Positions 1 through 8,868 of a stretch of DNA of 64,000 nucleotides are shown here, in pieces. Origin of the DNA: a virus; the IMG/VR virus record IMGVR_UViG_3300032288_003288; one strand, written 5' to 3'. A program made the position numbers and the translations under genes. Under the pieces are notes generated by a model that was not told the origin of the DNA, ran no database searches, and worked only from the letters and a program-made list of their open reading frames with translations. Each line of letters starts with the position of its first letter. Within the stretch, counting starts at the first letter, position 1.

Positions 1-1816
1 CGTCGATCTGCTCAGCTTCTTCACTCATATACTTGCGCTTGATTTCATTGGCTGCGCCCATGGCTGCAGCTGCAAGAGCGTGACTACCATTCTTCTTGAA
101 CATCTTGTGTGTGGTCATGTATGTATCAAGATGACGCTTGACTGCATCTTTTGGCATGTTCTTAAGTTCAGCATGTGCCTGAGGAGTAAGGAACGATTCA
201 TCAAGCTCTTCTGAAACAATACGTGCACTCTTAGTAGAAACTAATCCACGATAGTGATTTAATGCTTTATATGCATTGGTTGGGTGTACAGGTACTTTCT
301 TTTTATGGCCGAGAAGATGGGTTATTTCAATATACTGTTTGTTCTTTGAGAGCTCGTCGATCTGCTCGACTTCTTCATTGGCAATCTTACAAATGGTGTT
401 CTTACGGTTATAGTACTTGCGTGCTGCATCAGCATCTACATTGCTCTTGTGCCAATATTTGTGTACTTGCGGTACTGCCTTCTTGACATATGCATCCTTT
501 GCTACGGCTGAGATCTCGTCTAGCTCTTCAACTTCTTCAGTGGCATTGACTTTTGCTTTTAGCGGTGAATTCTTATATTGATCGGGATAGAGTTTTGCAG
601 AAGCAAGATTTGCAGACTTCATGTGCCTGTCTGCGTCTTTACCGCCTTCTAGTCCTTTACGCAGCATTCTACCGCCAGCATTACGTAAGGTTGTCTTTGA
701 GAGCTCGTCGATCTGCTCGACTTCTTCCATAACATAAAGATGTTTTGTACCTAGCTTTTTAGCTGCCTCGGCATGTGCATCCCTTAAAGTTTTTTCGCCT
801 GAGGAAAAATGCATCTCGTGTTCTTTCGGTGAACCGTAGAGCTTTGTAGTAAAAGCCCATGATCCAGTGCCGCGTGCCTTCTTGCCGTGATTGCGTTCAT
901 ATCTATTATGCATGATGCCTTCGATGATCTCAATGTCTTCATTAGCCTTTTTGGCTTTCCAAGCAGTGGCGTAGGCGATCGATCTTTCTTGATCGGTCAG
1001 TCCGCCCTTCGAGTAACCCTTCTTGATGTGCTTGACCATACGCTCAAACTTTTTACCGGGAGGAGCTACTTCTACCACATCATTGCACTCGCCGCAACAC
1101 TCAGGAGTGCCGCAGTTGTTGTGCTCTACTTCTTCTTTGAAGTTTTCGGACTTATAAGTCTTCTTGAAGTGGGCGAAACGGGACGTGATGTTGCTGTCTG
1201 TCGGCTCGCCAGCAATGTGACGACCGTGAGCTGAGTCGAGGAAGTGCTTGACCATTACGTTGGGCTTCTTGGCATCTTGCAGATGACCTTTTGAACTCAC
1301 AAGCTTCTTAACCTTGGCATGCATGGCAGAGTACTTCTTCTCACGATCTTCATCGCCAGAAGCTTCTACTGAGCCGTGATAACCATATGTAAGATTGCCC
1401 GACTTGATCTTTGATGAAGCTTCGTCAAGATCCACCTCTTCGTTGGCTTTCATAGCCTTTTTGGCAAGGTGCTTGGCAACGTTCTTGATGGTGTTTCCAT
1501 ACTCATCTTTACGCGTGCCGGTTGTACGTGTAGGATTCTTTGGATCTTCTTTCCAAGGTAGATCTTCCTCTTCCTTATAAAGAGTACCGTCCTTCTTATA
1601 CTTCGATGCAACTTTGTTCTTTAGAGTCCCGATCGTCTTTGCTCCATGAATGGTAGCCTGACGCTGACGAGTATCTCCTGCGACCTTGACAGGAGTCTGA
1701 TAGTCTTCGCAGGTATTCAGCGATTCCGCCGCATCCTTTTCTTTCTTTTGCAAAGTTTTCTTGACTTCGTCTAGAAGACCCTTAGAAAACTGATCTGTTA
1801 ATTTCTTGCTGAACAT
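1..1816 (-). CDS. Large modular protein with repeated EEVEQIDE-type linkers, probable internal head polyprotein (3' end outside window)
   Basis: ATG at 1816 (MFSKKLTDQFSKGLLDEVKK...) with a GGAG SD; frame read by hand and stays in register at the linkers down to position 1; absent from ORF track because no stop falls in the window. Confidence 0.8.
   Translation of the reverse strand, partial: MFSKKLTDQFSKGLLDEVKKTLQKKEKDAAESLNTCEDYQTPVKVAGDTRQRQATIHGAKTIGTLKNKVASKYKKDGTLYKEEEDLPWKEDPKNPTRTTGTRKDEYGNTIKNVAKHLAKKAMKANEEVDLDEASSKIKSGNLTYGYHGSVEASGDEDREKKYSAMHAKVKKLVSSKGHLQDAKKPNVMVKHFLDSAHGRHIAGEPTDSNITSRFAHFKKTYKSENFKEEVEHNNCGTPECCGECNDVVEVAPPGKKFERMVKHIKKGYSKGGLTDQERSIAYATAWKAKKANEDIEIIEGIMHNRYERNHGKKARGTGSWAFTTKLYGSPKEHEMHFSSGEKTLRDAHAEAAKKLGTKHLYVMEEVEQIDELSKTTLRNAGGRMLRKGLEGGKDADRHMKSANLASAKLYPDQYKNSPLKAKVNATEEVEELDEISAVAKDAYVKKAVPQVHKYWHKSNVDADAARKYYNRKNTICKIANEEVEQIDELSKNKQYIEITHLLGHKKKVPVHPTNAYKALNHYRGLVSTKSARIVSEELDESFLTPQAHAELKNMPKDAVKRHLDTYMTTHKMFKKNGSHALAAAAMGAANEIKRKYMSEEAEQID
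343..727. repeat. 34-bp exact direct repeat (343-376 and 694-727) encoding EEVEQIDELSK; degenerate copies near 1-22, 511-537 and 1417-1440
   Basis: tctttgagagctcgtcgatctgctcgacttcttc occurs twice. Confidence 0.9.
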
Positions 1817-1827
1817 GTTTTTCTCCG

Positions 1828-2439
1828 TTAGTCCGCATCTATGATTTTAATTTTTCGTTGAGCTTTCTGTGATCTTCTGATCAAGTAACGTTTGATATTA
1901 TCTATGTCCCTGTCTCCTGCACCCTGTACATTCGCAGGATCTGGATGAGACGTCTTGGGAGGGCCACGAAATCTGGGATCGTCTGAAGGATGCAAGTGAT
2001 CCTCAGGATCTATGTGATGATGATGTTGACCCGTGTCAGTAAGCTGAGCACGAATAGCGTCTAGATGGTTCTTAACAAAGCCATGCTTTTCCAACATGCC
2101 TGGACCCATCTGCTCTGCGTTGTGCAAGATGATAGATGCGAGTTGCTCTGCTCTGTTGACGTTGTCCTGAGAAGCCATCTTCGTATTCAGTACTGATCTT
2201 TCTAGATCAAACAGCTTGTCGAGGTTAATGGCAGTAATCTCTGCAGGGACAAAGTCTGTGTCAGGCGGCAAGTCAGCGTACAGCTTCTGTGCCATGGGGC
2301 ACATCTCAAACGACTTGGTGGTGTATGTGCCAACCGTTACTTGGTCGTTCTGATCAGTCTCTTGCTCAGGACGCAGCGTACGCTCGTCGATGCGAGCCAT
2401 AACGCGTCTAATTGAGCTTTCGACCGAGCGATATCCCAT
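1828..2439 (-). CDS. Hypothetical T4-like phage protein
   Basis: ORF coupled to the dps stop (TAATG). Confidence 0.7.
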   Translation of the reverse strand: MGYRSVESSIRRVMARIDERTLRPEQETDQNDQVTVGTYTTKSFEMCPMAQKLYADLPPDTDFVPAEITAINLDKLFDLERSVLNTKMASQDNVNRAEQLASIILHNAEQMGPGMLEKHGFVKNHLDAIRAQLTDTGQHHHHIDPEDHLHPSDDPRFRGPPKTSHPDPANVQGAGDRDIDNIKRYLIRRSQKAQRKIKIIDAD

Positions 2440-2882
2440 TACACGATCTTCCCGTAAGAACGAAGCATCCATGCATGCTTGGCGTGTTGATCCATACGAT
2501 CTTCTAGAAAGTTGACTAGACCGTTTAGACCCATACTGTCAGCAAGGTCGCGTGTCTGCTTAAGAGTGTTGCGCAGCGTATCGTTATCGGCTCTAAGAAT
2601 AGAGACCATCATCAGCGGAGACGGGACAGTGTTTTCACCAGTAATCCCCGACAACTCGCCGAAACGTTCTAATGAACCCGGTGCATAGGCATCTAGCGCA
2701 CGAATCTGTTCAGCCATAGGATCGATGGCGCCGTAAACTTCCTCGTAAAAGTTACCAAAGAAGTCATGAAACTGTTGAAAGTCCGGACCTTCCACGTTCC
2801 AGTGGAAATAGTGCGCCTTCAGATAAAGGGCAAAAGACTCTGCGAGAGTCTTCTTCATCAGTTGAACTAATTCATCCATCAC
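2439..2882 (-). CDS. dps: Dps / ferritin-like DNA protection protein
   Basis: HYFHWNVEGPDF..HDFF, D.MAEQIRAL and KHAWMLRS Dps motifs. Confidence 0.95.
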   Translation of the reverse strand: MMDELVQLMKKTLAESFALYLKAHYFHWNVEGPDFQQFHDFFGNFYEEVYGAIDPMAEQIRALDAYAPGSLERFGELSGITGENTVPSPLMMVSILRADNDTLRNTLKQTRDLADSMGLNGLVNFLEDRMDQHAKHAWMLRSYGKIV

Positions 2883-4432
2883 TCTTCACCCTCATCTTCT
2901 TCGTCTTGAATTTCTAGTTGCTTTCTCTTGTTCATCTCTTTGATTACCGCAGGATGATGTTCGAAAGCCGGCTTAAACTTAATACCGATGTCGTCGGCGG
3001 TCAACGTCGTTCCGATGCCTGCAGCAGCCACGATGTTGAAAGACTCGTTGATGCTTTCAGAAGTGACCTTCTTCTCTATCTCTTGCTGCTTGGTAGGCGA
3101 ACGCTTACCTTTGTCGTTTCTCGGGACGTTATAGATCGTTTGGCGAACTTTGGTTGGTTCTCCAGGAGTGTCGTCTTTATATGTGTTGGTCAGGTCTACT
3201 GTGCCGACTTCACGCTTATACGGATCGAGATTCATCTCTTTCATCGAAGCGTCTTTAAAAGCTTGTTTGGTAGGAGCACCCTTCGAACCTGGCTTACGAG
3301 GCTTTTCTCCACGCGCTCGCTTGGCATGGATGTTTGCCCACAGACCATTCTTTTCGAACAGCTTGTCGACTTCTGACCGATTGTCAGGAAGCGTCTCGAT
3401 CTTGCCTTCTACAATGACCTTCTGCCACTTGCCGTCGATCTTTCTCATCTCGACCATTGGCTTGGCTGAAGGTTGTAGGTCTGCATCTTCTGTGTAGTAA
3501 GTGCGACCTTTATTTAAGAAAGAGTTTACACGAGCAAAAGCTTTCTGTAAAGCGTACGTCTCATTTTCTTCTGTACGATAGCCACGCTCGAACACTTGAA
3601 GGATGGTATCCATGTCGATACCGCTCTTGTCGCTTTTCTTGAGAAGCGAACGATAGGCAGCTTCGCTGATTTGAATCTTGTCGTCTTCTGGCGTCAACAG
3701 GCTTTCTGCGAGTCTGTGAACCGAGAAGTTGTGCTTGAGTGCACGAATCTTGGGATCTACGCTCTCTGCTACCAGATCATGAATGAGAGGTAGGAGCTGA
3801 TCGTTGTTGGTCAGATCTAAATCGTTCAAGAAGTCAAATGACTCTGAAGTTATTGACGTCGATCCGGATTGTGGTCCTGTCATCTTTGTGCCGTGTAAGA
3901 ACGACTGCAGCCTACGTTGCTCTGCTGCCTTGACACGTGGAATCAAGCGCTGAGCGATCTTCTTGATCAGCTTAACGCGCTTGTCGACCTGACGATCTAT
4001 CGCTTCTTTTTCTGTAGGACCAAGAGTAGCATACTCTGCGCCTCGGCGGCCGGCGACTCTCATGCGCACGCGCTGACGGGCTAGTTGAAATGCTCTCTTT
4101 TTGATGATTTGTGGCGGAGCCATTTTTCTTTGAGCTATTTTTTTGGCTCTCTGAATCTTACCTTCCCAACGACGTATGATCATAGCACGCTTCTGTCGTT
4201 GCTGTATATTCAGAGCTTCTACCATGAGGCCTTCTGCCTCTAGCTCTTCATTCATTTGTTTTCTCAGCTCGATGATGTAGGTCAAGACTACGTCATCCAC
4301 GTTCTGCTCTTTTACGTCTAGCTGAGGATTGACGACGACTTTATCGAGCGGTTTGCCTGTGACCGAGTTGCCAGTACGCTTCGGATCAGGTTTTAGTAGT
4401 TTAGGTTTCTTAGTCTTATCATTCTTTTCCAT
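2879..4432 (-). CDS. Large basic/acidic modular late protein, probable internal head protein
   Basis: Late promoter upstream; basic modules (KKSDKSGI...AFARVNSF; GLWANIHAKRARGEK) and several L/I-x-E sites. Confidence 0.7.
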   Translation of the reverse strand: MEKNDKTKKPKLLKPDPKRTGNSVTGKPLDKVVVNPQLDVKEQNVDDVVLTYIIELRKQMNEELEAEGLMVEALNIQQRQKRAMIIRRWEGKIQRAKKIAQRKMAPPQIIKKRAFQLARQRVRMRVAGRRGAEYATLGPTEKEAIDRQVDKRVKLIKKIAQRLIPRVKAAEQRRLQSFLHGTKMTGPQSGSTSITSESFDFLNDLDLTNNDQLLPLIHDLVAESVDPKIRALKHNFSVHRLAESLLTPEDDKIQISEAAYRSLLKKSDKSGIDMDTILQVFERGYRTEENETYALQKAFARVNSFLNKGRTYYTEDADLQPSAKPMVEMRKIDGKWQKVIVEGKIETLPDNRSEVDKLFEKNGLWANIHAKRARGEKPRKPGSKGAPTKQAFKDASMKEMNLDPYKREVGTVDLTNTYKDDTPGEPTKVRQTIYNVPRNDKGKRSPTKQQEIEKKVTSESINESFNIVAAAGIGTTLTADDIGIKFKPAFEHHPAVIKEMNKRKQLEIQDEEDEGEE

Positions 4433-4490: not shown

Positions 4491-4498
4491 TATTTATA
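4491..4498 (-). promoter_or_regulatory. T4-type late promoter TATAAATA
   Basis: Exact consensus, intergenic; gp55 is encoded in the window. Confidence 0.8.
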
Positions 4499-4508
4499 AT
4501 AAATCAGT

Positions 4509-4787
4509 TTAGCAGTTCCAACGCTTAAGGGAAGCGGCCTTACGGGTCGGTCTGCCCTTCTCGTCCTTCATAGGACCGGGCATGCCGCTCATGCGAGCGC
4601 AGAAAGACTTACGTCTTTTGGCTGCCTCGCCGTCTGGATCTAGTTTGCTAGGCGGAGTAGTGACTGCCATCTTGACGCCAGCCGCCTTAGCTCCCTTACG
4701 AGTCAAGCCAGCGCCGTCTTCGGTCGGTCTCTTGTGGCCTTTTGTGTCTTCTCCGCGTTCTGTTATGAATTCTTTGAACTTGATCAT
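4509..4787 (-). CDS. Small basic protein with capsid-targeting-like N-terminus
   Basis: MIKFKEFITE resembles the T4 IP capsid-targeting sequence; RRKSFCARMSGM...KRWNC. Confidence 0.75.
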   Translation of the reverse strand: MIKFKEFITERGEDTKGHKRPTEDGAGLTRKGAKAAGVKMAVTTPPSKLDPDGEAAKRRKSFCARMSGMPGPMKDEKGRPTRKAASLKRWNC

Positions 4788-6097
4788 GTGACTTCTTCCC
4801 ATGTCATGGCTCCGACCGCGTCGTTGCCATTGGCTGCACCAGTAGCAGCAAGAGTAATGGTAACACCAATGTTGTTAGCAGCAAAAGGATCTCTTTCAAA
4901 TTGATACGCAAAGAGATCGGATCTAGATAAGTTAACTGCTGCGCCGCCAGAACCTGCAGCCACATTTACATAACCGATCTGTGCATCTCTACCACCGGTG
5001 ATAGCTGTAGCTGTAGTGTCATATTCTATTGCAGAATCATTAGACGTATTAGCAAAGTTAGCTCCAGTTAGAGTTCCACCAATAATGATCTTATACCTGT
5101 AGCTGGTATTGTTTGTAACACCAAAGAACTCGACATCTTTTAAAACAGCAACAGCATCTTTAAAAGAATCTCTTAATCTCAATGAAACGATAGGAGTAAA
5201 TGTTCCAGCCGTGGGAAGATCTTTTGGTGAGGTGATGGGTATACTAACGCTTCTAGCTCTACCGTTTAGTTCATATCCGCCTTCTGATATGACTGTAGAG
5301 CATATCTGCTTAAGCGTAGAGTTGCTGGCAGTGTTGGCGGTATTTTTAATCTCATATCTACAAGGCAACGTGGCAGTGGTCATATATGTCGTGGTGTTTA
5401 CGTTGTCGTTATGAAATATATGAGCAGGTAGCATTATGCCATCTACAACAAATCCACATCTAACGTCACCAACACCGAGCCATTCGACGTCTATCCAGAA
5501 GATATTAGACTTGGTGATGTTTAGTCCGCCTGAATGTTCAGCTGATGTGCTCTGACCAGAAAAACCTGTTCCATCGAAGCTATCGACGTTCCAGTTTGAT
5601 TGAGCTATTCTATTATCTGTAGGAGTTCCTGTGACGTTGCTCCGAAGGACCAGATAGTTTCCGCTACCATCATTTTCTAAAAAGATCCCGTTCTCTGTAT
5701 TGAAGTATCCTACTCGCTGAGTTAATCCAGCTTTAGGAGTATTCATACAGAAAGTATTTAAGATGAGTAGAGATTTGCCAGGCTGATAAGAGAATACACG
5801 CTTGGTTTCTCTATAGACGTGAGAGTTATTGGCAGTATCTACGTTCATATTTATGACCGATTCGTTGGTCATGTGCTCGGTATTAGAAGTGCCAGCAGTA
5901 TTTGTCGACCACTTGTCGTTGTCTTGATAACGATGAGAAGAATCGAAAAGAGTGTACCCTGTAGAGGTGCGAAGTCTACCAAACGCATCTGTTACAGTTC
6001 CTGACGGAGTAAGTCTGTTGTCTAACATGTTTACTTCGTATAGAGTCTTGTTATGAGACCTATGCAGTATCTTTTGATCTGATCTCCACTGCGCCAT
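4784..6097 (-). CDS. Beta-rich putative virion structural protein
   Basis: 437 aa, T/N/G-rich, DAFGRLRTS motif. Confidence 0.6.
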   Translation of the reverse strand: MAQWRSDQKILHRSHNKTLYEVNMLDNRLTPSGTVTDAFGRLRTSTGYTLFDSSHRYQDNDKWSTNTAGTSNTEHMTNESVINMNVDTANNSHVYRETKRVFSYQPGKSLLILNTFCMNTPKAGLTQRVGYFNTENGIFLENDGSGNYLVLRSNVTGTPTDNRIAQSNWNVDSFDGTGFSGQSTSAEHSGGLNITKSNIFWIDVEWLGVGDVRCGFVVDGIMLPAHIFHNDNVNTTTYMTTATLPCRYEIKNTANTASNSTLKQICSTVISEGGYELNGRARSVSIPITSPKDLPTAGTFTPIVSLRLRDSFKDAVAVLKDVEFFGVTNNTSYRYKIIIGGTLTGANFANTSNDSAIEYDTTATAITGGRDAQIGYVNVAAGSGGAAVNLSRSDLFAYQFERDPFAANNIGVTITLAATGAANGNDAVGAMTWEEVT

Positions 6098-6708
6098 TAA
6101 CTAATCCAGTTCTTGAATGTGGCGATGAACATCTCTGAGATACCGATGCCCTTACGAACGTCATGATACAACTCGTCTTTATGAGCTTTGCTCATGCCGC
6201 TCGGAGCCATCTTATGAAACTCTTCTCTATTTCCTGCTGCAGCGTGTCTACGCATCGCAGTGCCAGAGGCTGCAGCTAGACCTTCGCCGCCTTCTGATCT
6301 CTCGGCCCCGACTGACTTGACTTTGATACTCTTGAAGTTGTATCCGCCATGTCTACCTTCTTTGCCGTTGTACTTGTGTAGAAGATCATGGAATTCCTTG
6401 ACACGATCTGAACCGACATGCATAGTCACGTGAGTGTAACCGGCTTTGTGTAGCTTAGACATCTGAGCCAGCAGAGTAGGATGATCTTTACCCATGGCCT
6501 CTACGTTGGCACCAGGAACTGCACGCTTGAGATGTTTGACCTTCTGTTGCGGAGTCAGAGGATTCTTCTTGGCATCGTGTGAGCCAGTCGTCAGGATCTT
6601 GTGATCTGCGCCTTCCTTCTTAGCAGCATCCATAACTTGCTTGACTACCATAGCATGTCCAGCGTGGACTGGATTGAATCTGCCTTGAGTTATATGGATG
6701 GCTTTCAT
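6097..6708 (-). CDS. HIGH-motif nucleotidyltransferase (phage cytidylyltransferase/NMNAT-like)
   Basis: GRFNPVHAGH, KNPL, VGSDR and SGTAMR motifs. Confidence 0.85.
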   Translation of the reverse strand: MKAIHITQGRFNPVHAGHAMVVKQVMDAAKKEGADHKILTTGSHDAKKNPLTPQQKVKHLKRAVPGANVEAMGKDHPTLLAQMSKLHKAGYTHVTMHVGSDRVKEFHDLLHKYNGKEGRHGGYNFKSIKVKSVGAERSEGGEGLAAASGTAMRRHAAAGNREEFHKMAPSGMSKAHKDELYHDVRKGIGISEMFIATFKNWIS

Positions 6709-7853
6709 TTCTTTGTTACTCTTGATGCTCTGAGCATTTCGCTGCGGGCTCTGTTGGCTTTCGAGAAACCTTCGCGATCAACGATCTTGATCGGGCTAGT
6801 TCCTCCTGCCACGTAGCCTTCGCCGCCTGCCTTGTTACCGCCAATATGAGTTTCAAATCCTCCGGCTCCATGACTGTCCAACGCACGAGCCAGATGATTG
6901 GTGGCTTGCTGTACGTGATGATGGATCTGCAGAGATCTGTTGAATGCCGATGCATTCTTCTTGACATGCTGTAGAGCAGCTTCTTTGGTCGCGCGCTTCT
7001 CATCTTTCGCTTTCTGTGTCTTGACAGAATCAATCTTCTTGTCATGATGTGCAGCCAACCATGTCGCATAGCCGCGTGTTGAAGGCTTCTCTCCTGAAGA
7101 GACGGTCGAGTTGATGTACGTTCTCATGGTAATCTCATGACCAGCGAGGTGCTGATACGAGTGGCCTTTCATGAGTTTAGTGGCAGCTCTGAGATGCTGA
7201 TCTACTAGCTTCTTATGTTCAGGCGCAATGTTTCTTTCAGCGCCGCTGACGACGTGCGATACTCTATGTACGTCTGGATGTTCACCGAACTCTGAGTCGT
7301 CTGTGATAGGATGAGGCTTCTTGTCTTTGCCCTTCAATTCAGTATGAATGACGGTGCTGACCTTAGACTTGGCAAGCTTCTTACCTTCTGCAGAGTTGGC
7401 AGGAGTCTTGTACTCGATCGTGTTTGGAGTATGAGATATCTGGCCGTCTTTGGTCTCGCGAGTCTCAGGAGTCGACATGAACCCACCTTGATACTCGCCA
7501 GCTCTGTTAGGCAGCACTTTGCTTAGATGCTTATGTAGAGCTTTTAGCGGACCAGCAAGATATGGCTTATGGCCGTGTTGCTTGTCGATATCCTTTTCAG
7601 AGAAGTTATATGTGGCGCCTGGGCCTTTGTACTTCACTCCGACCTTGCCATCGGCAGTGCGAATGGCCTGATACGACATCTTGTCGTCGATCTTGCGAGT
7701 GATAGGTGCAGCTCCACGCAATGAAGCACGTAGCGTACGAACTGCATGCGCAGTAGCCTTAGGTCCATCAAACGTTCTGTCTGATGGATGCTCGAGATGT
7801 TGAATACCTGCTGCAGCAGTTGCTTCTGTTAGATAGTCTAAGAACGTCTTCAT
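6705..7853 (-). CDS. Conserved T4-like protein with ligase/nucleotidyltransferase-like motifs and capsid-targeting N-terminus
   Basis: MKTFLDYLTE; HLEHPSD; TRKIDD; PNTIEY; GEGYV; KIVDR. Confidence 0.65.
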   Translation of the reverse strand: MKTFLDYLTEATAAAGIQHLEHPSDRTFDGPKATAHAVRTLRASLRGAAPITRKIDDKMSYQAIRTADGKVGVKYKGPGATYNFSEKDIDKQHGHKPYLAGPLKALHKHLSKVLPNRAGEYQGGFMSTPETRETKDGQISHTPNTIEYKTPANSAEGKKLAKSKVSTVIHTELKGKDKKPHPITDDSEFGEHPDVHRVSHVVSGAERNIAPEHKKLVDQHLRAATKLMKGHSYQHLAGHEITMRTYINSTVSSGEKPSTRGYATWLAAHHDKKIDSVKTQKAKDEKRATKEAALQHVKKNASAFNRSLQIHHHVQQATNHLARALDSHGAGGFETHIGGNKAGGEGYVAGGTSPIKIVDREGFSKANRARSEMLRASRVTKK

Positions 7854-7878
7854 TATTTTTCCTTCAGTCTCGGACTAT

Positions 7879-8868
7879 TTATTTCTTTCTGCGAGTCGGA
7901 AACTGGTTAAACATCTTCTGATACTTCGAGAAGTTGAGGATCATCTTGGTGTTCCAGATCTGCTCATCTCCGTCGTCTGTGGTGACGTGAAGAGTGGCAT
8001 TGGTCCAGATATTGCCAGTCATCTTGGCATCGATCACGGGCTTACCGATCTTCTCGATCATCTTCTGCATGAAGTTGCGGTATGCATCTTCTGCACCCTG
8101 AACATTCATCTTGATGTAGCGATCGATCATCTCTTGATTAGGAACACGAATATCGCCTTCACCTGGCCTAGACATGGTATTCTTTGCCTTGGTGATGGAG
8201 CGATACAGCGAGCGCTTCTGCTCCACCATCTTATATTCATTATAGCTCTTGGTCCTAGGTACTGCCTTATCGAGATCCCAGTCATGCTTCTTGAGGAAGT
8301 CGAGACGATCTTCAATAAACTTGGTTGCTTGCTTGCGAGCCATCTCTTTGTACTCGTTCAGGTGGCTTTCGAAGATCTTGATCAGCGAAGAAGAATCTGC
8401 AAACTTACGAGCCATAACTGCATTCGAAGCAGCCTTGACTTCAGCACGCTTCTGACTCACTTTTACGACCTTGCTCTTTAGAGCTTTGAGGTCTTCACCG
8501 ACCGGCTTCCATGCCTTGATATATTCACGAACATCTTTAAGCATGTTAGAGTATGCAGGTACCTTCTTCTTTTCCAACTTACCGAGCAGCTTCTCGATCT
8601 TATTATGACTGGTGAATCCGTCGAAGTTGGTATAGTAGAGCTCAGTAAGATCTTCGTCATCGCGGTGGTTACGAACCAGATCGAGAATAGAGTCTGGCTT
8701 AGCAGACCACTTACCGCTACCCATGACTCGCTTAGCTTGACTGACGAGGTCGATGTACTGAGGGTTCAGGATCTCGCCAGCCTTCTTATAGGCAGCGATA
8801 GCCCTGACAATCTCTTCATGAGTCGTCATGCGAGTCGACTCAGTGATGTATTGATTAAACGTCTTCAT
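7879..8868 (-). CDS. Hypothetical protein with capsid-targeting-like N-terminus
   Basis: MKTFNQYITE at 8868, overlapping the upstream stop. Confidence 0.7.
   Translation of the reverse strand: MKTFNQYITESTRMTTHEEIVRAIAAYKKAGEILNPQYIDLVSQAKRVMGSGKWSAKPDSILDLVRNHRDDEDLTELYYTNFDGFTSHNKIEKLLGKLEKKKVPAYSNMLKDVREYIKAWKPVGEDLKALKSKVVKVSQKRAEVKAASNAVMARKFADSSSLIKIFESHLNEYKEMARKQATKFIEDRLDFLKKHDWDLDKAVPRTKSYNEYKMVEQKRSLYRSITKAKNTMSRPGEGDIRVPNQEMIDRYIKMNVQGAEDAYRNFMQKMIEKIGKPVIDAKMTGNIWTNATLHVTTDDGDEQIWNTKMILNFSKYQKMFNQFPTRRKK

What the first reader, a model, noticed from the sequence alone, without database searches (positions are those of the whole stretch)
1..1816. Hidden cassette polyprotein: basic mini-modules joined by repeated prohead-protease-type linkers
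Seen: a >605-aa ORF missed by the ORF track consists of about 45-100-aa K/H/R-rich modules that look unrelated to one another. They are separated by acidic linkers NEEVDLDEA, KEEVEH, NEDIEIIEG, MEEVEQIDELS, TEEVEELDEIS, NEEVEQIDELS, SEELDES and SEEAEQIDE. Two linkers are an exact 34-bp DNA repeat. Known: T4 gp21 cleaves after E in (I/L)-x-E, and processed internal proteins are ejected into the host (IPI inhibits the GmrSD nuclease). Inference: one gene packages an array of peptide effectors released during head maturation, and the linker repeats let modules be shuffled by recombination. This would be an expandable anti-defence or DNA-condensing array.
Basis: partly seen in the sequence, partly recalled or inferred. 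Interest (0 to 1): 0.8.

Follow-up and report, generated by a model that had tools for sequence, protein, structure and literature searches.

The report
Shuffled head-cargo polyprotein of T4-like phage
An uncultured T4-like phage encodes one 874-residue late protein made of about a dozen small basic modules joined by acidic linkers that end in the cutting motif of T4-type head proteases, so one gene probably loads a swappable set of mini-proteins into the capsid, although neither cutting nor packaging has been measured.

Summary
Window 2-1816 (minus strand) is the first 605 codons of a real 874-residue gene that runs off the window's start. About 12 basic modules (net +5 to +8) are joined by acidic linkers, and two linkers share an exact 34-nt repeat.

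- **Junction motif:** across 84 module-anchored junctions in relatives, the residue before each module is Glu in 94% and the residue two before it is Ile or Leu in 85%. This is the L/I-x-E motif cut by T4 gp21.
- **Context:** the gene closes a late operon, downstream of proteins with T4-type capsid-targeting leaders.
- **Variation:** in 15 syntenic loci the two ends of the protein are kept while the middle cassettes vary. Similarity breakpoints pile up at the linkers.
- **Second site:** sister polyproteins lie between the portal and prohead-protease genes in two relatives.
- **Protease link:** all 7 related records that could be checked encode a Peptidase_S77 protease.
- **Cultured relatives:** none carries this protein, so cleavage, packaging and module function are inferred.
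- **Against:** bare L/I-x-E is not depleted inside modules, and one multi-module cyanophage protein was absent from a virion proteome.

This scan has reported the same class at least seven times on other genomes. I found no published description. Verdict: a new variant of the T4 internal-protein system, with confidence 0.6 in the packaged-and-cleaved reading.

The parts
1..1816 (-). Polyprotein gene, first 605 of 874 codons. It continues beyond the window's start.
   Evidence: 996 clusters of relatives at E<=1e-3 among 1.84 billion representatives.
1823..1826 (-). GGAG ribosome-binding site, 7 nt before the ATG at 1816-1814
1766..1816 (-). 17-residue N-terminal leader ending in L-D-E. It is a lineage-specific leader shared by 64 family proteins, not the canonical T4 capsid targeting sequence (CTS).
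1445..1765 (-). Conserved N-terminal block (modules 1a and 1b). Module 1b is found in 52 of 120 relatives.
1421..1444 (-). Linker 1, acidic, ends L-D-E before module 2
1139..1420 (-). Module 2, a His-rich helical bundle (AF2 pLDDT 83-95; weak match to phrog_8020), present in 53 of 120 relatives. In other phages it sits directly behind a CTS-like leader.
1070..1138 (-). Linker 2 plus a Cys-rich mini-module (H-x2-C-x4-C-C-x2-C), predicted disordered, present in 49 of 120 relatives
947..1069 (-). Module 4, a two-helix unit 61-73% identical to small cyanomyovirus proteins, one of them annotated DUF6321
   Evidence: The Pfam model itself did not match.
920..943 (-). Linker 3, ends I-I-E before module 5
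731..919 (-). Module 5, a small alpha/beta unit (pLDDT 85-90), present in 31 of 120 relatives
704..730 (-). Linker 4, ends I-D-E; contains one copy of the exact 34-nt repeat (694-727)
542..703 (-). Module 6
515..541 (-). Linker 5, ends L-D-E
380..514 (-). Module 7
353..379 (-). Linker 6, ends I-D-E; contains the second copy of the 34-nt repeat (343-376). The copies are 351 nt apart, in frame.
218..352 (-). Module 8
197..214 (-). Linker 7, ends L-D-E
26..196 (-). Module 9
2..25 (-). Linker 8, cut by the window edge
4491..4498 (-). T4-type late promoter TATAAATA, heading the operon 517-aa protein, Dps-like protein, 214-aa protein, polyprotein
   Evidence: 10 copies in the window against 1.27 expected.
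2879..4432 (-). 517-aa second modular basic protein of the same operon. It shares module types with family members and has hydrophobic-x-E at likely joints.
2439..2882 (-). Dps/ferritin-like gene inside the operon, syntenic in all 15 related loci
1828..2472 (-). 214-aa protein of unknown function directly upstream; conserved in 4 of the related loci
4509..4787 (-). 92-aa basic protein with a T4-CTS-like leader ending I-T-E; conserved in 14 of the 15 related loci
4784..8868 (-). Upstream cargo block: a virion structural protein (phrog_1645), a cytidylyltransferase, a DUF6267 protein and a 329-aa protein. The last two start with T4-CTS-like leaders ending L-T-E and I-T-E.

Best explanation
The gene encodes a capsid-cargo polyprotein of a T4-like phage.

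Proposed mechanism:
1. It is made late from a T4-type late promoter.
2. It enters the prohead core with the other leader-bearing cargo proteins of the block.
3. The phage's gp21-type (Peptidase_S77) prohead protease cuts it after the Glu of each (I/L)-D-E at the end of every acidic linker.
4. This releases about a dozen basic proteins of 5-12 kDa, each keeping a short acidic tail. They stay with the packaged DNA, like T4 internal proteins, and probably leave with it at infection.

The protein has a fixed N-terminal leader and block and a fixed C-terminal module, with a variable cassette array between them. The stereotyped linker, conserved even at the DNA level, doubles as an in-frame recombination joint, so cassettes are gained, lost and reordered among related phages.

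Shown: the anatomy, the motif at the joints, late-operon and capsid-block context, hypervariability with breakpoints at linkers, and co-occurrence with S77 proteases.

Inferred: packaging, cleavage, ejection and what the modules do.
For: 1. **Junction motif.** In 84 distinct junction contexts anchored on the module start (not on the motif), P1 is Glu in 94%, P3 is Ile/Leu in 85% (Val 8%) and P2 is Asp in 63%. P1' is specific to the module. 197 of 274 mapped module copies have [IL]xE at the module start, against 24% at random positions. This is the published gp21 motif L/I-X-E (PMC9026906). The same motif is seen at the T4 gp23 and gp24 maturation sites in the T4 record.
2. **The phage is T4-like.** It has gp41, UvsX, gp43, gp44, gp46/47 and a helicase. 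TATAAATA occurs 10 times against 1.27 expected, one copy heading this operon. Three proteins just upstream start with T4-CTS-like leaders ending (I/L)-T-E.
3. **Interchangeable joints.** The same modules occur behind a CTS-like leader at the N-terminus of other proteins and behind an acidic linker inside polyproteins, with the joint at the same place. The DUF6321-annotated module is a stand-alone gene with a CTS-like start in cyanophage S-RSM4, at a syntenic place.
4. **Leaders in the family.** 71 of 326 family proteins start with a T4-CTS-like leader, against 0.25% at internal Met positions.
5. **Sister polyproteins in the head-gene cluster.** They lie between portal gp20 and protease gp21, the slot of T4 genes 67/68, in L016 and G001. 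L016 shares the exact 34-nt linker DNA.
6. **Hypervariable middle.** 15 of 15 related loci keep the synteny, yet at that slot the proteins range from 476 to 874 aa, with conserved ends and different middle cassettes. Module order differs among 120 relatives. 10.8% of high-identity alignment ends fall exactly at the cut position, against 0.9% by chance.
7. **Co-occurrence with T4-type head genes.** More than 120 IMG/VR contigs carry the linker-coding pattern. 68 of 80 loci have T4 head or cargo-block markers within 15 kb. All 7 records that could be checked encode Peptidase_S77.
8. **Independent folding.** AF2 gives confident, separate folds for modules 2 and 5 and low confidence in the linkers.
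9. **Published virion proteome.** In cyanophage S-SZBM1 the virion contains a CTS-bearing cytidylyltransferase and the multi-module protein S-SZBM1_139 at the syntenic place (PMC9146016 Table 1).
Against: - No virion or cleavage data exist for this protein or any close relative. No cultured phage carries it.
- This protein's own leader is not the canonical CTS.
- Outside the acidic linkers, [IL]xE is not depleted in the family (observed/expected 1.07). There is thus no sign of selection against internal sites, and specificity would have to come from context or exposure.
- Some joints lack Ile/Leu at P3 (A/V-x-E before the Cys-rich unit and module 4) or lack the motif altogether (before module 1b).
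- Linker 3 is modelled as the end of a helix, not as a loop.
- The module annotated DUF6321 also exists as a 49-residue protein without a leader.
- The 707-residue multi-module protein S-SZBM1_194 was not among the 30 virion proteins detected.
- The window's own genome could not be searched, so its protease was not seen.
Confidence: 0.6

Rival explanations
1. The protein is packaged or DNA-associated but stays whole or nearly whole. On this reading it is a long beads-on-a-string basic protein. Its acidic linkers are flexible spacers that balance the charge of the basic modules, and the hydrophobic-x-Glu pattern reflects helix capping or linker structure, not a protease site.
For: - Bare [IL]xE is not depleted inside modules.
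- One linker is modelled as helical.
- The conserved upstream Glu-rich stretch (P4-P8) is not part of the published gp21 motif.
- The linker plus the first helix of many cassettes forms one conserved unit: 56 of 87 downstream contexts cluster together.
Against: - The two most conserved linker positions are exactly P1 Glu and P3 Ile/Leu.
- The same joint is used after removable CTS-like leaders.
- A charge spacer would not need an invariant Glu placed immediately before each module's first residue.
Confidence: 0.17
2. The protein is a prohead core or scaffold component like T4 gp22, gp67 and gp68. It would be built into the core and cut at many sites, with the fragments expelled before DNA packaging instead of being kept as cargo.
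For: - Sister genes sit in the gene 67/68 slot between portal and protease.
- T4 gp22 and gp68 carry many L/I-x-E sites in acidic surroundings.
Against: - The modules are strongly basic (pI about 10), whereas relatives keep a normal acidic gp22-like scaffold.
- A structural scaffold would not be expected to swap its modules freely.
- No homology to T4 gp68 was found (hhalign probability 2.4%).
Confidence: 0.1
3. It is a late intracellular protein that is never packaged, for example a hub of small nucleic-acid-binding domains acting in the infected cell. Any processing would be done by another protease.
For: - Direct evidence for packaging is lacking.
- This protein's leader is not the canonical CTS.
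- One module also exists without any leader.
- S-SZBM1_194 was not detected in virions.
Against: - It is co-transcribed with, and syntenic to, leader-bearing cargo genes whose cyanophage homologues are in virions.
- The family sits in head-gene clusters in relatives.
- It is tightly linked to S77-encoding phages.
Confidence: 0.1

Closest known systems
Phage T4 internal proteins IPI, IPII, IPIII and Alt: capsid targeting sequence plus gp21 processing (PMC9026906; PMC12373910)
   Same: - Small basic proteins made late in a T4-type phage.
- A removable leader ending in L/I-x-E.
- Predicted cutting by an S77 prohead protease.
- The locus is hypervariable among relatives.
- Neighbouring genes in this window carry near-canonical leaders.
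   Different: - In T4 each internal protein is a separate gene with one leader and one cut. Here about 12 units are fused in one reading frame with about 12 internal sites.
- This protein's own leader is a different, lineage-specific one.
- There is no sequence similarity to IPI-III (no Pfam match).
- T4 Ip1-3 are shown GmrSD inhibitors, whereas no function is known here.
T4 prohead core proteins gp22, gp67, gp68 (multi-site gp21 substrates)
   Same: - Cut at many L/I-x-E sites in acidic surroundings.
- Sister polyproteins occupy the gene 67/68 slot between portal and protease.
   Different: - The core proteins are acidic, their content is conserved, and their fragments mostly leave the head.
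- This protein is basic and modular, and its cassettes are swapped.
- No homology to gp68 was detected.
Polyvalent proteins of phages and conjugative elements (Iyer, Burroughs, Anand, de Souza, Aravind 2017; PMC5512222)
   Same: - Many unrelated domains in one polypeptide.
- Predicted delivery with the DNA.
- Extensive mosaicism.
- Release of the parts by proteolysis is proposed, and the authors draw the analogy to RNA-virus polyproteins.
   Different: - Polyvalent proteins are built of enzymatic and anti-restriction domains and often carry their own embedded peptidase.
- Here the units are tiny basic domains without known families, there is no embedded peptidase, and the joints carry the site of the separate capsid protease.
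Polymorphic internal-protein loci of T-even phages (Repoila et al. 1994, as cited in PMC12373910)
   Same: Unrelated cargo proteins are exchanged at one locus, and only the short leader is shared between them.
   Different: In T-even phages whole genes are exchanged. Here cassettes are exchanged within one open reading frame, at a repeated linker that is conserved at the DNA level. I could not read the 1994 paper itself.
Ejection and inner-body proteins of giant phages phiKZ and SPN3US, cut by their prohead proteases (PMC5694885, PMC10052503)
   Same: Many head-internal proteins are processed after Glu at a short motif by a gp21 relative.
   Different: Those are separate genes, mostly with a single propeptide cut and a different motif. 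I did not find a cassette polyprotein described in these papers' abstracts or in the passages I read.

Membership tests
T4-type internal (capsid-targeted, gp21-processed) proteins | N-terminal capsid targeting sequence of the T4 type (M-K-T-x-x-x-F-I/L-x-E) | tested here: not met
   This protein's first 17 residues end in L-D-E but do not fit the CTS pattern. 64 family proteins share this other leader. 71 of 326 family proteins, and three neighbouring proteins in the window, do fit the pattern.
T4-type internal (capsid-targeted, gp21-processed) proteins | L/I-x-E site at the boundary of the mature protein | tested here: met
   10 of the protein's 12 [IL]xE sites lie in the linkers. In the junction logo, P1 is Glu in 94% and P3 is Ile/Leu in 85%.
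T4-type internal (capsid-targeted, gp21-processed) proteins | Peptidase_S77 (gp21) prohead protease in the same genome | not testable with these tools
All 7 related records that could be checked have the protease.
T4-type internal (capsid-targeted, gp21-processed) proteins | Late expression | tested here: met
   A T4 late-promoter consensus at 4491-4498 heads the operon, and the motif is enriched about 8-fold in the window. This is sequence evidence only.
T4-type internal (capsid-targeted, gp21-processed) proteins | Small basic mature products | tested here: met
   The predicted pieces are 45-120 residues long, with core pI 9.5-10.4.
T4-type internal (capsid-targeted, gp21-processed) proteins | Presence in the virion, actual cleavage, and ejection with the DNA | not testable with these tools
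   No cultured phage carries the protein. The only indirect support is S-SZBM1_139 and the leader-bearing cytidylyltransferase in a cyanophage virion proteome.
T4-type internal (capsid-targeted, gp21-processed) proteins | Sequence homology to IPI, IPII, IPIII or Alt | tested here: not met
   There is no Pfam family for the whole protein or for any single module.
Polyvalent proteins (Iyer et al. 2017) | Several unrelated domains in one polypeptide of a phage or plasmid, with a mosaic architecture | tested here: met
Polyvalent proteins (Iyer et al. 2017) | Known conflict domains (methylase, helicase, ART, ArdA, DarA, MuF, lysozyme and others) | tested here: not met
   No Pfam match at E<=0.1 for the protein or at E<=1 for single modules, apart from chance-level rows.
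Polyvalent proteins (Iyer et al. 2017) | Embedded peptidase domain for self-processing | tested here: not met
   No peptidase family was found by Pfam or PHROGs.
Pfam DUF6321 (PF19846), module 4 only | Match to the family model | tested here: inconclusive
   hmmscan of the module alone lists no PF19846 match at E<=1. Yet the module is 61-73% identical to cyanophage proteins, one of which is annotated DUF6321 in its record, and a structure-based Atlas neighbour cluster carries PF19846.

The most novel reading that the evidence does not exclude
Aquatic T4-like phages may use a true polyprotein strategy for injected cargo. One late gene would string together a changeable set of mini-proteins that act on the host at the moment of DNA entry, as counter-defence or take-over factors. 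The capsid protease's recognition site would serve at the same time as the in-frame recombination joint through which phage populations trade cassettes. That would be a combinatorial, expandable arsenal with about a thousand sequence clusters in public data, and a ready-made natural scheme for loading arbitrary small proteins into capsids.
Probability: 0.3. Interest if true: 0.85.

Novelty: new variant of a known kind. Interest (0 to 1): 0.62.

Why it matters
T4 internal proteins are the textbook case of proteins injected with phage DNA, and all three T4 examples are now known to block specific host nucleases (PMC12373910). If this reading is right, uncultured aquatic T4-like phages deliver not three but a dozen or more such proteins per gene, and exchange them as cassettes.

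This would matter in three ways:
- It would give a large, unexplored pool of candidate host-directed mini-proteins: 996 clusters share at least one module with this protein.
- It would be a natural example of polyprotein processing in a tailed DNA phage.
- It would be a simple rule (leader, cassette, acidic linker ending I/L-D-E) that can be tested directly and reused for packaging foreign proteins.

It would also explain part of the 'hypothetical protein' mass in marine and freshwater viromes.

Tried and rejected
- **Selection against internal protease sites.** Outside the acidic linkers, [IL]xE is not depleted in the 229 family proteins then held (observed/expected 1.07; control motifs range 0.77-1.50). 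This supporting argument fails. The segmentation is imperfect, so the test is blunt.
- **Homology of the common N-terminal module of sister polyproteins to T4 gp68.** BLAST E was 0.55 and hhalign probability 2.4%. Rejected.
- **Homology of this lineage's leader to the N-termini of cyanophage S-CREM1_219 and S-SZBM1_139.** A leader HMM did not find them. Rejected.
- **Function from fold.** Foldseek against PDB and BFVD for modules 2-5 gave nothing at E<=0.001 except cyanophage homologues of module 4. The VIA wide search on the C-terminal model gave only long-helix matches with Z<5, so the C-terminal module itself was barely tested. The ESM Atlas gave only unnamed viral clusters.
- **Pfam on the whole protein and on each module.** No family was found. 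PHROGs gave only weak matches to families of unknown function.
- **Cultured carriers.** tblastn of three family members against 50,697 phage records finds only the module annotated DUF6321, in cyanomyoviruses.
- **S-CREM1 virion proteome.** The held text does not say whether ORF219 was detected; that is shown only in a figure.
- **Access problems.** The Repoila 1994 paper is not held.
- **Uninformative call.** One megablast against E. coli genomes was uninformative.
Full report
**What is there.** Window 2-1816 on the minus strand is an open frame of 605 codons that runs off the window's start. The protein database holds the complete product, P0001, 874 residues, from a 158.6-kb contig. The gene starts 11 nt after the stop of the previous gene and has a GGAG 7 nt before its ATG. 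The exact 34-nt repeat lies at 343-376 and 694-727. With the window's codon usage, two independent copies of those 11 codons would be identical with probability about 6e-5. The two copies are 351 nt apart, so they are in frame.

Module cores have net charge +5 to +8 and pI near 10, while the last nine residues before each joint carry -3 to -6. The modules are mostly unrelated to each other. No Pfam family matches the protein or any single module. An AlphaFold2 model of residues 133-371 gives confident separate folds for module 2 (helical, pLDDT 83-95) and module 5 (alpha/beta, 85-90) and low confidence between them.

**The phage and the operon.** No genome is held for the window. The window itself carries T4-type replication genes: gp41 helicase, UvsX, gp43 polymerase, gp44 clamp loader, gp46/47 and a helicase. 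The T4 late-promoter word TATAAATA occurs 10 times against 1.27 expected. One copy at 4491-4498 heads the run of a 517-aa modular protein, a Dps-like protein, a 214-aa protein and the polyprotein.

Just upstream lies a block with a virion structural protein (phrog_1645), a cytidylyltransferase and a DUF6267 protein. Three proteins there begin with ten-residue leaders of the T4 capsid-targeting type that end in I/L-T-E. I took this lead from earlier notes on this genome and checked it.

**The joints.** P0001 has 12 [IL]xE sites. This is not more than a shuffle gives (8.9 +/- 2.7), but 10 of them sit in the acidic linkers and one ends the 17-residue leader. To avoid circularity I mapped this protein's module cores onto 120 relatives and read what lies before each module start. 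197 of 274 copies have [IL]xE there, against 24% at random positions.

In 84 distinct junction contexts where the alignment reaches the module's first residues, P1 is Glu in 94%, P3 is Ile or Leu in 85% (Val 8%) and P2 is Asp in 63%. P4-P8 are mostly Glu, Gln or Val, and P1' depends on the module. The two best-kept positions are thus those of the published gp21 motif L/I-X-E (PMC9026906). I also read that motif in the T4 record at the gp23 (L-T-E, then Ala66) and gp24 (L-R-E) maturation sites. The 456-residue mature gp23 chains in the PDB agree with the gp23 site.

The same modules also occur at the N-terminus of other proteins, directly behind a T4-CTS-like leader or behind a bare Met-plus-linker stub, with the joint at the same place. 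This holds for module 2 in P0304 and P0308 and for module 5 in P0200, P0232 and P0235. The module annotated DUF6321 is a separate small gene with a CTS-like start in cyanophage S-RSM4, in a syntenic block. Leader end and linker end therefore look interchangeable, as expected if both are removed at the same bond.

**Variation.** The family is large. There are 1055 hits among near-length proteins and 996 clusters at E<=1e-3 among 1.84 billion representatives, nearly all sharing only some modules. Module order differs freely. For example, 1b-2-3-8, 2-8-1b-3, 1b-3-2-12, 5-1b and 1b-5 all occur, and modules 9 and 10 are swapped between P0001 and P0002.

All 15 related IMG/VR loci keep the neighbourhood: phosphatase-like gene, DUF6267, cytidylyltransferase, 517-aa protein, small leader-bearing protein, Dps, polyprotein. 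The cytidylyltransferase is up to 84% identical. At that orthologous slot the polyproteins keep an N-terminal block and, in this lineage, the C-terminal module. That module is always C-terminal in the 22 relatives that carry it. Between the two ends, the number and identity of cassettes differ, giving lengths of 476 to 874 residues.

Ends of alignments with at least 60% identity between family members fall exactly on the predicted cut in 10.8% of cases, against 0.9% by chance. They fall within -3 to +6 residues in 33%, against 8.6%. These counts are not independent events, but the pile-up is sharp.

**Linker DNA and distribution.** The 34-mer also occurs, exactly, in one IMG/VR contig (L016), inside a different 525-residue polyprotein with otherwise unrelated DNA. 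My rough estimate of the chance expectation is well below one. All 88 copies in the 80 loci examined are in open frames, with 67 clusters of upstream context against 26 downstream. The pattern forces Leu at P1', which favours one common helical cassette type.

68 of these 80 loci carry, within 15 kb, a T4 head-module marker (16 loci) or a cargo-block marker (54 loci). All five long records among them encode Peptidase_S77, as do G001 and L016.

**A second slot.** In L016 the polyprotein lies between the T4-type portal (Portal_T4, E 3e-180) and the prohead protease (Peptidase_S77, E 3.5e-38). In the 150-kb record G001 the order is terminase, sheath, tube, portal, a 512-codon polyprotein-like ORF with a near-canonical T4-type leader, a 125-aa ORF, protease, acidic scaffold and a gp23 homologue (E 1.9e-78 to T4 gp23). 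In T4 that slot holds genes 67 and 68. This places the family physically inside the head-assembly gene cluster.

**Experimental hints from the literature.** No cultured phage carries this protein. The closest cultured cases are multi-module cyanophage proteins that follow a leader-bearing nucleotidyltransferase. S-CREM1_219 (783 aa) shares module 4 at 67% identity. S-SZBM1_139 shares two modules with S-CREM1_219. The S-SZBM1 virion proteome lists S-SZBM1_139 (4 peptides) and the leader-bearing cytidylyltransferase S-SZBM1_140, but not the 707-aa multi-module S-SZBM1_194 (PMC9146016 Table 1). This is indirect and mixed support.

**What argues against.**
- Outside the acidic linkers, [IL]xE is not depleted in the family (ratio 1.07).
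- Some joints use Val or Ala at P3, or lack the motif.
- One linker is modelled as a helix end.
- This protein's leader is not the canonical one.
- One module also exists without a leader.
- Cleavage, packaging, ejection and function are all inferred.

**Comparison with what is known.** The system works like T4 internal proteins (leader, L/I-x-E, gp21, small basic products, polymorphic locus) but fuses about a dozen units into one frame. It resembles the multi-cut core proteins gp22, gp67 and gp68 in site density and, for the sister genes, in position. It is basic and mosaic, however, and no gp68 homology was found.

It fits the concept of polyvalent proteins (PMC5512222) but lacks their enzyme domains and embedded peptidases. 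My literature searches found no description of such cassette polyproteins. This scan has reported the same class on at least seven other genomes, with the same reading and no experimental test. I list those notes under earlier findings and did not count them as evidence.

**Verdict.** The feature is real and its anatomy is clear. The most likely mechanism is a capsid-loaded polyprotein cut by the prohead protease into internal proteins, with linker-mediated cassette exchange. My confidence in that reading is 0.6. I rate it a new variant of a known kind.

Noticed in passing
window 2439-2882 (-): A Dps/ferritin-like gene (Pfam Ferritin, E 8.7e-23) sits inside the late cargo operon between modular basic proteins. 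It keeps that place in all 15 related loci. A DNA-protecting or DNA-compacting protein at this spot may itself be capsid cargo.
   Followed up: partly
window 2879-4432 (-): The 517-aa protein directly behind the late promoter is a second modular basic protein. It contains a short motif (G-L-W-A-N-I-H-A-K-R) that recurs in many phage proteins (several PHROGs), has hydrophobic-x-E at likely joints, and ends in an acidic tail.
   Followed up: partly
window 1070-1120 (-): A Cys-rich mini-module (H-x2-C-x4-C-C-x2-C) is conserved in 49 of 120 relatives and always follows an E-E-[VA]-E-H joint. It may be a tiny metal-binding knuckle. It is predicted disordered when modelled without metal.
   Followed up: no
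window 4509-4787 (-): A 92-aa basic protein with a T4-CTS-like leader and a conserved Cys-containing C-terminus is found in 14 of the 15 related loci, and as S-SZBM1_192 in a cultured cyanophage.
   Followed up: partly
L016:2429-4003 and L020:8923-10461: Sister polyproteins lie between the portal (gp20) and prohead protease (gp21) genes, the slot of T4 genes 67/68. The one in G001 begins with a near-canonical T4-type leader.
   Followed up: yes
L025-L104 (IMG/VR loci with the linker pattern): After the common linker, 56 of 87 downstream contexts start with the same helix (L-S-K-x-T-L-x-S-Y-x-K-K-A). This loosely resembles the CTS-like leaders (M-S-K-T-L-K-Q-F-L-E) found at the N-termini of 71 family proteins. 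The cassettes may descend from fused leader-bearing genes.
   Followed up: no
L023:4679-5767 (cyanophage S-SZBM1_140): The cytidylyltransferase detected in the published S-SZBM1 virion proteome starts with a T4-CTS-like leader ending I-I-E. This supports packaging of the homologous enzyme block in this window (6097-7853).
   Followed up: partly
window 1828-2472 / 2439-2882 (-): The 214-aa ORF as listed overlaps the end of the Dps gene by 34 nt. A later start is possible. The protein is conserved in 4 related loci and has no family.
   Followed up: no
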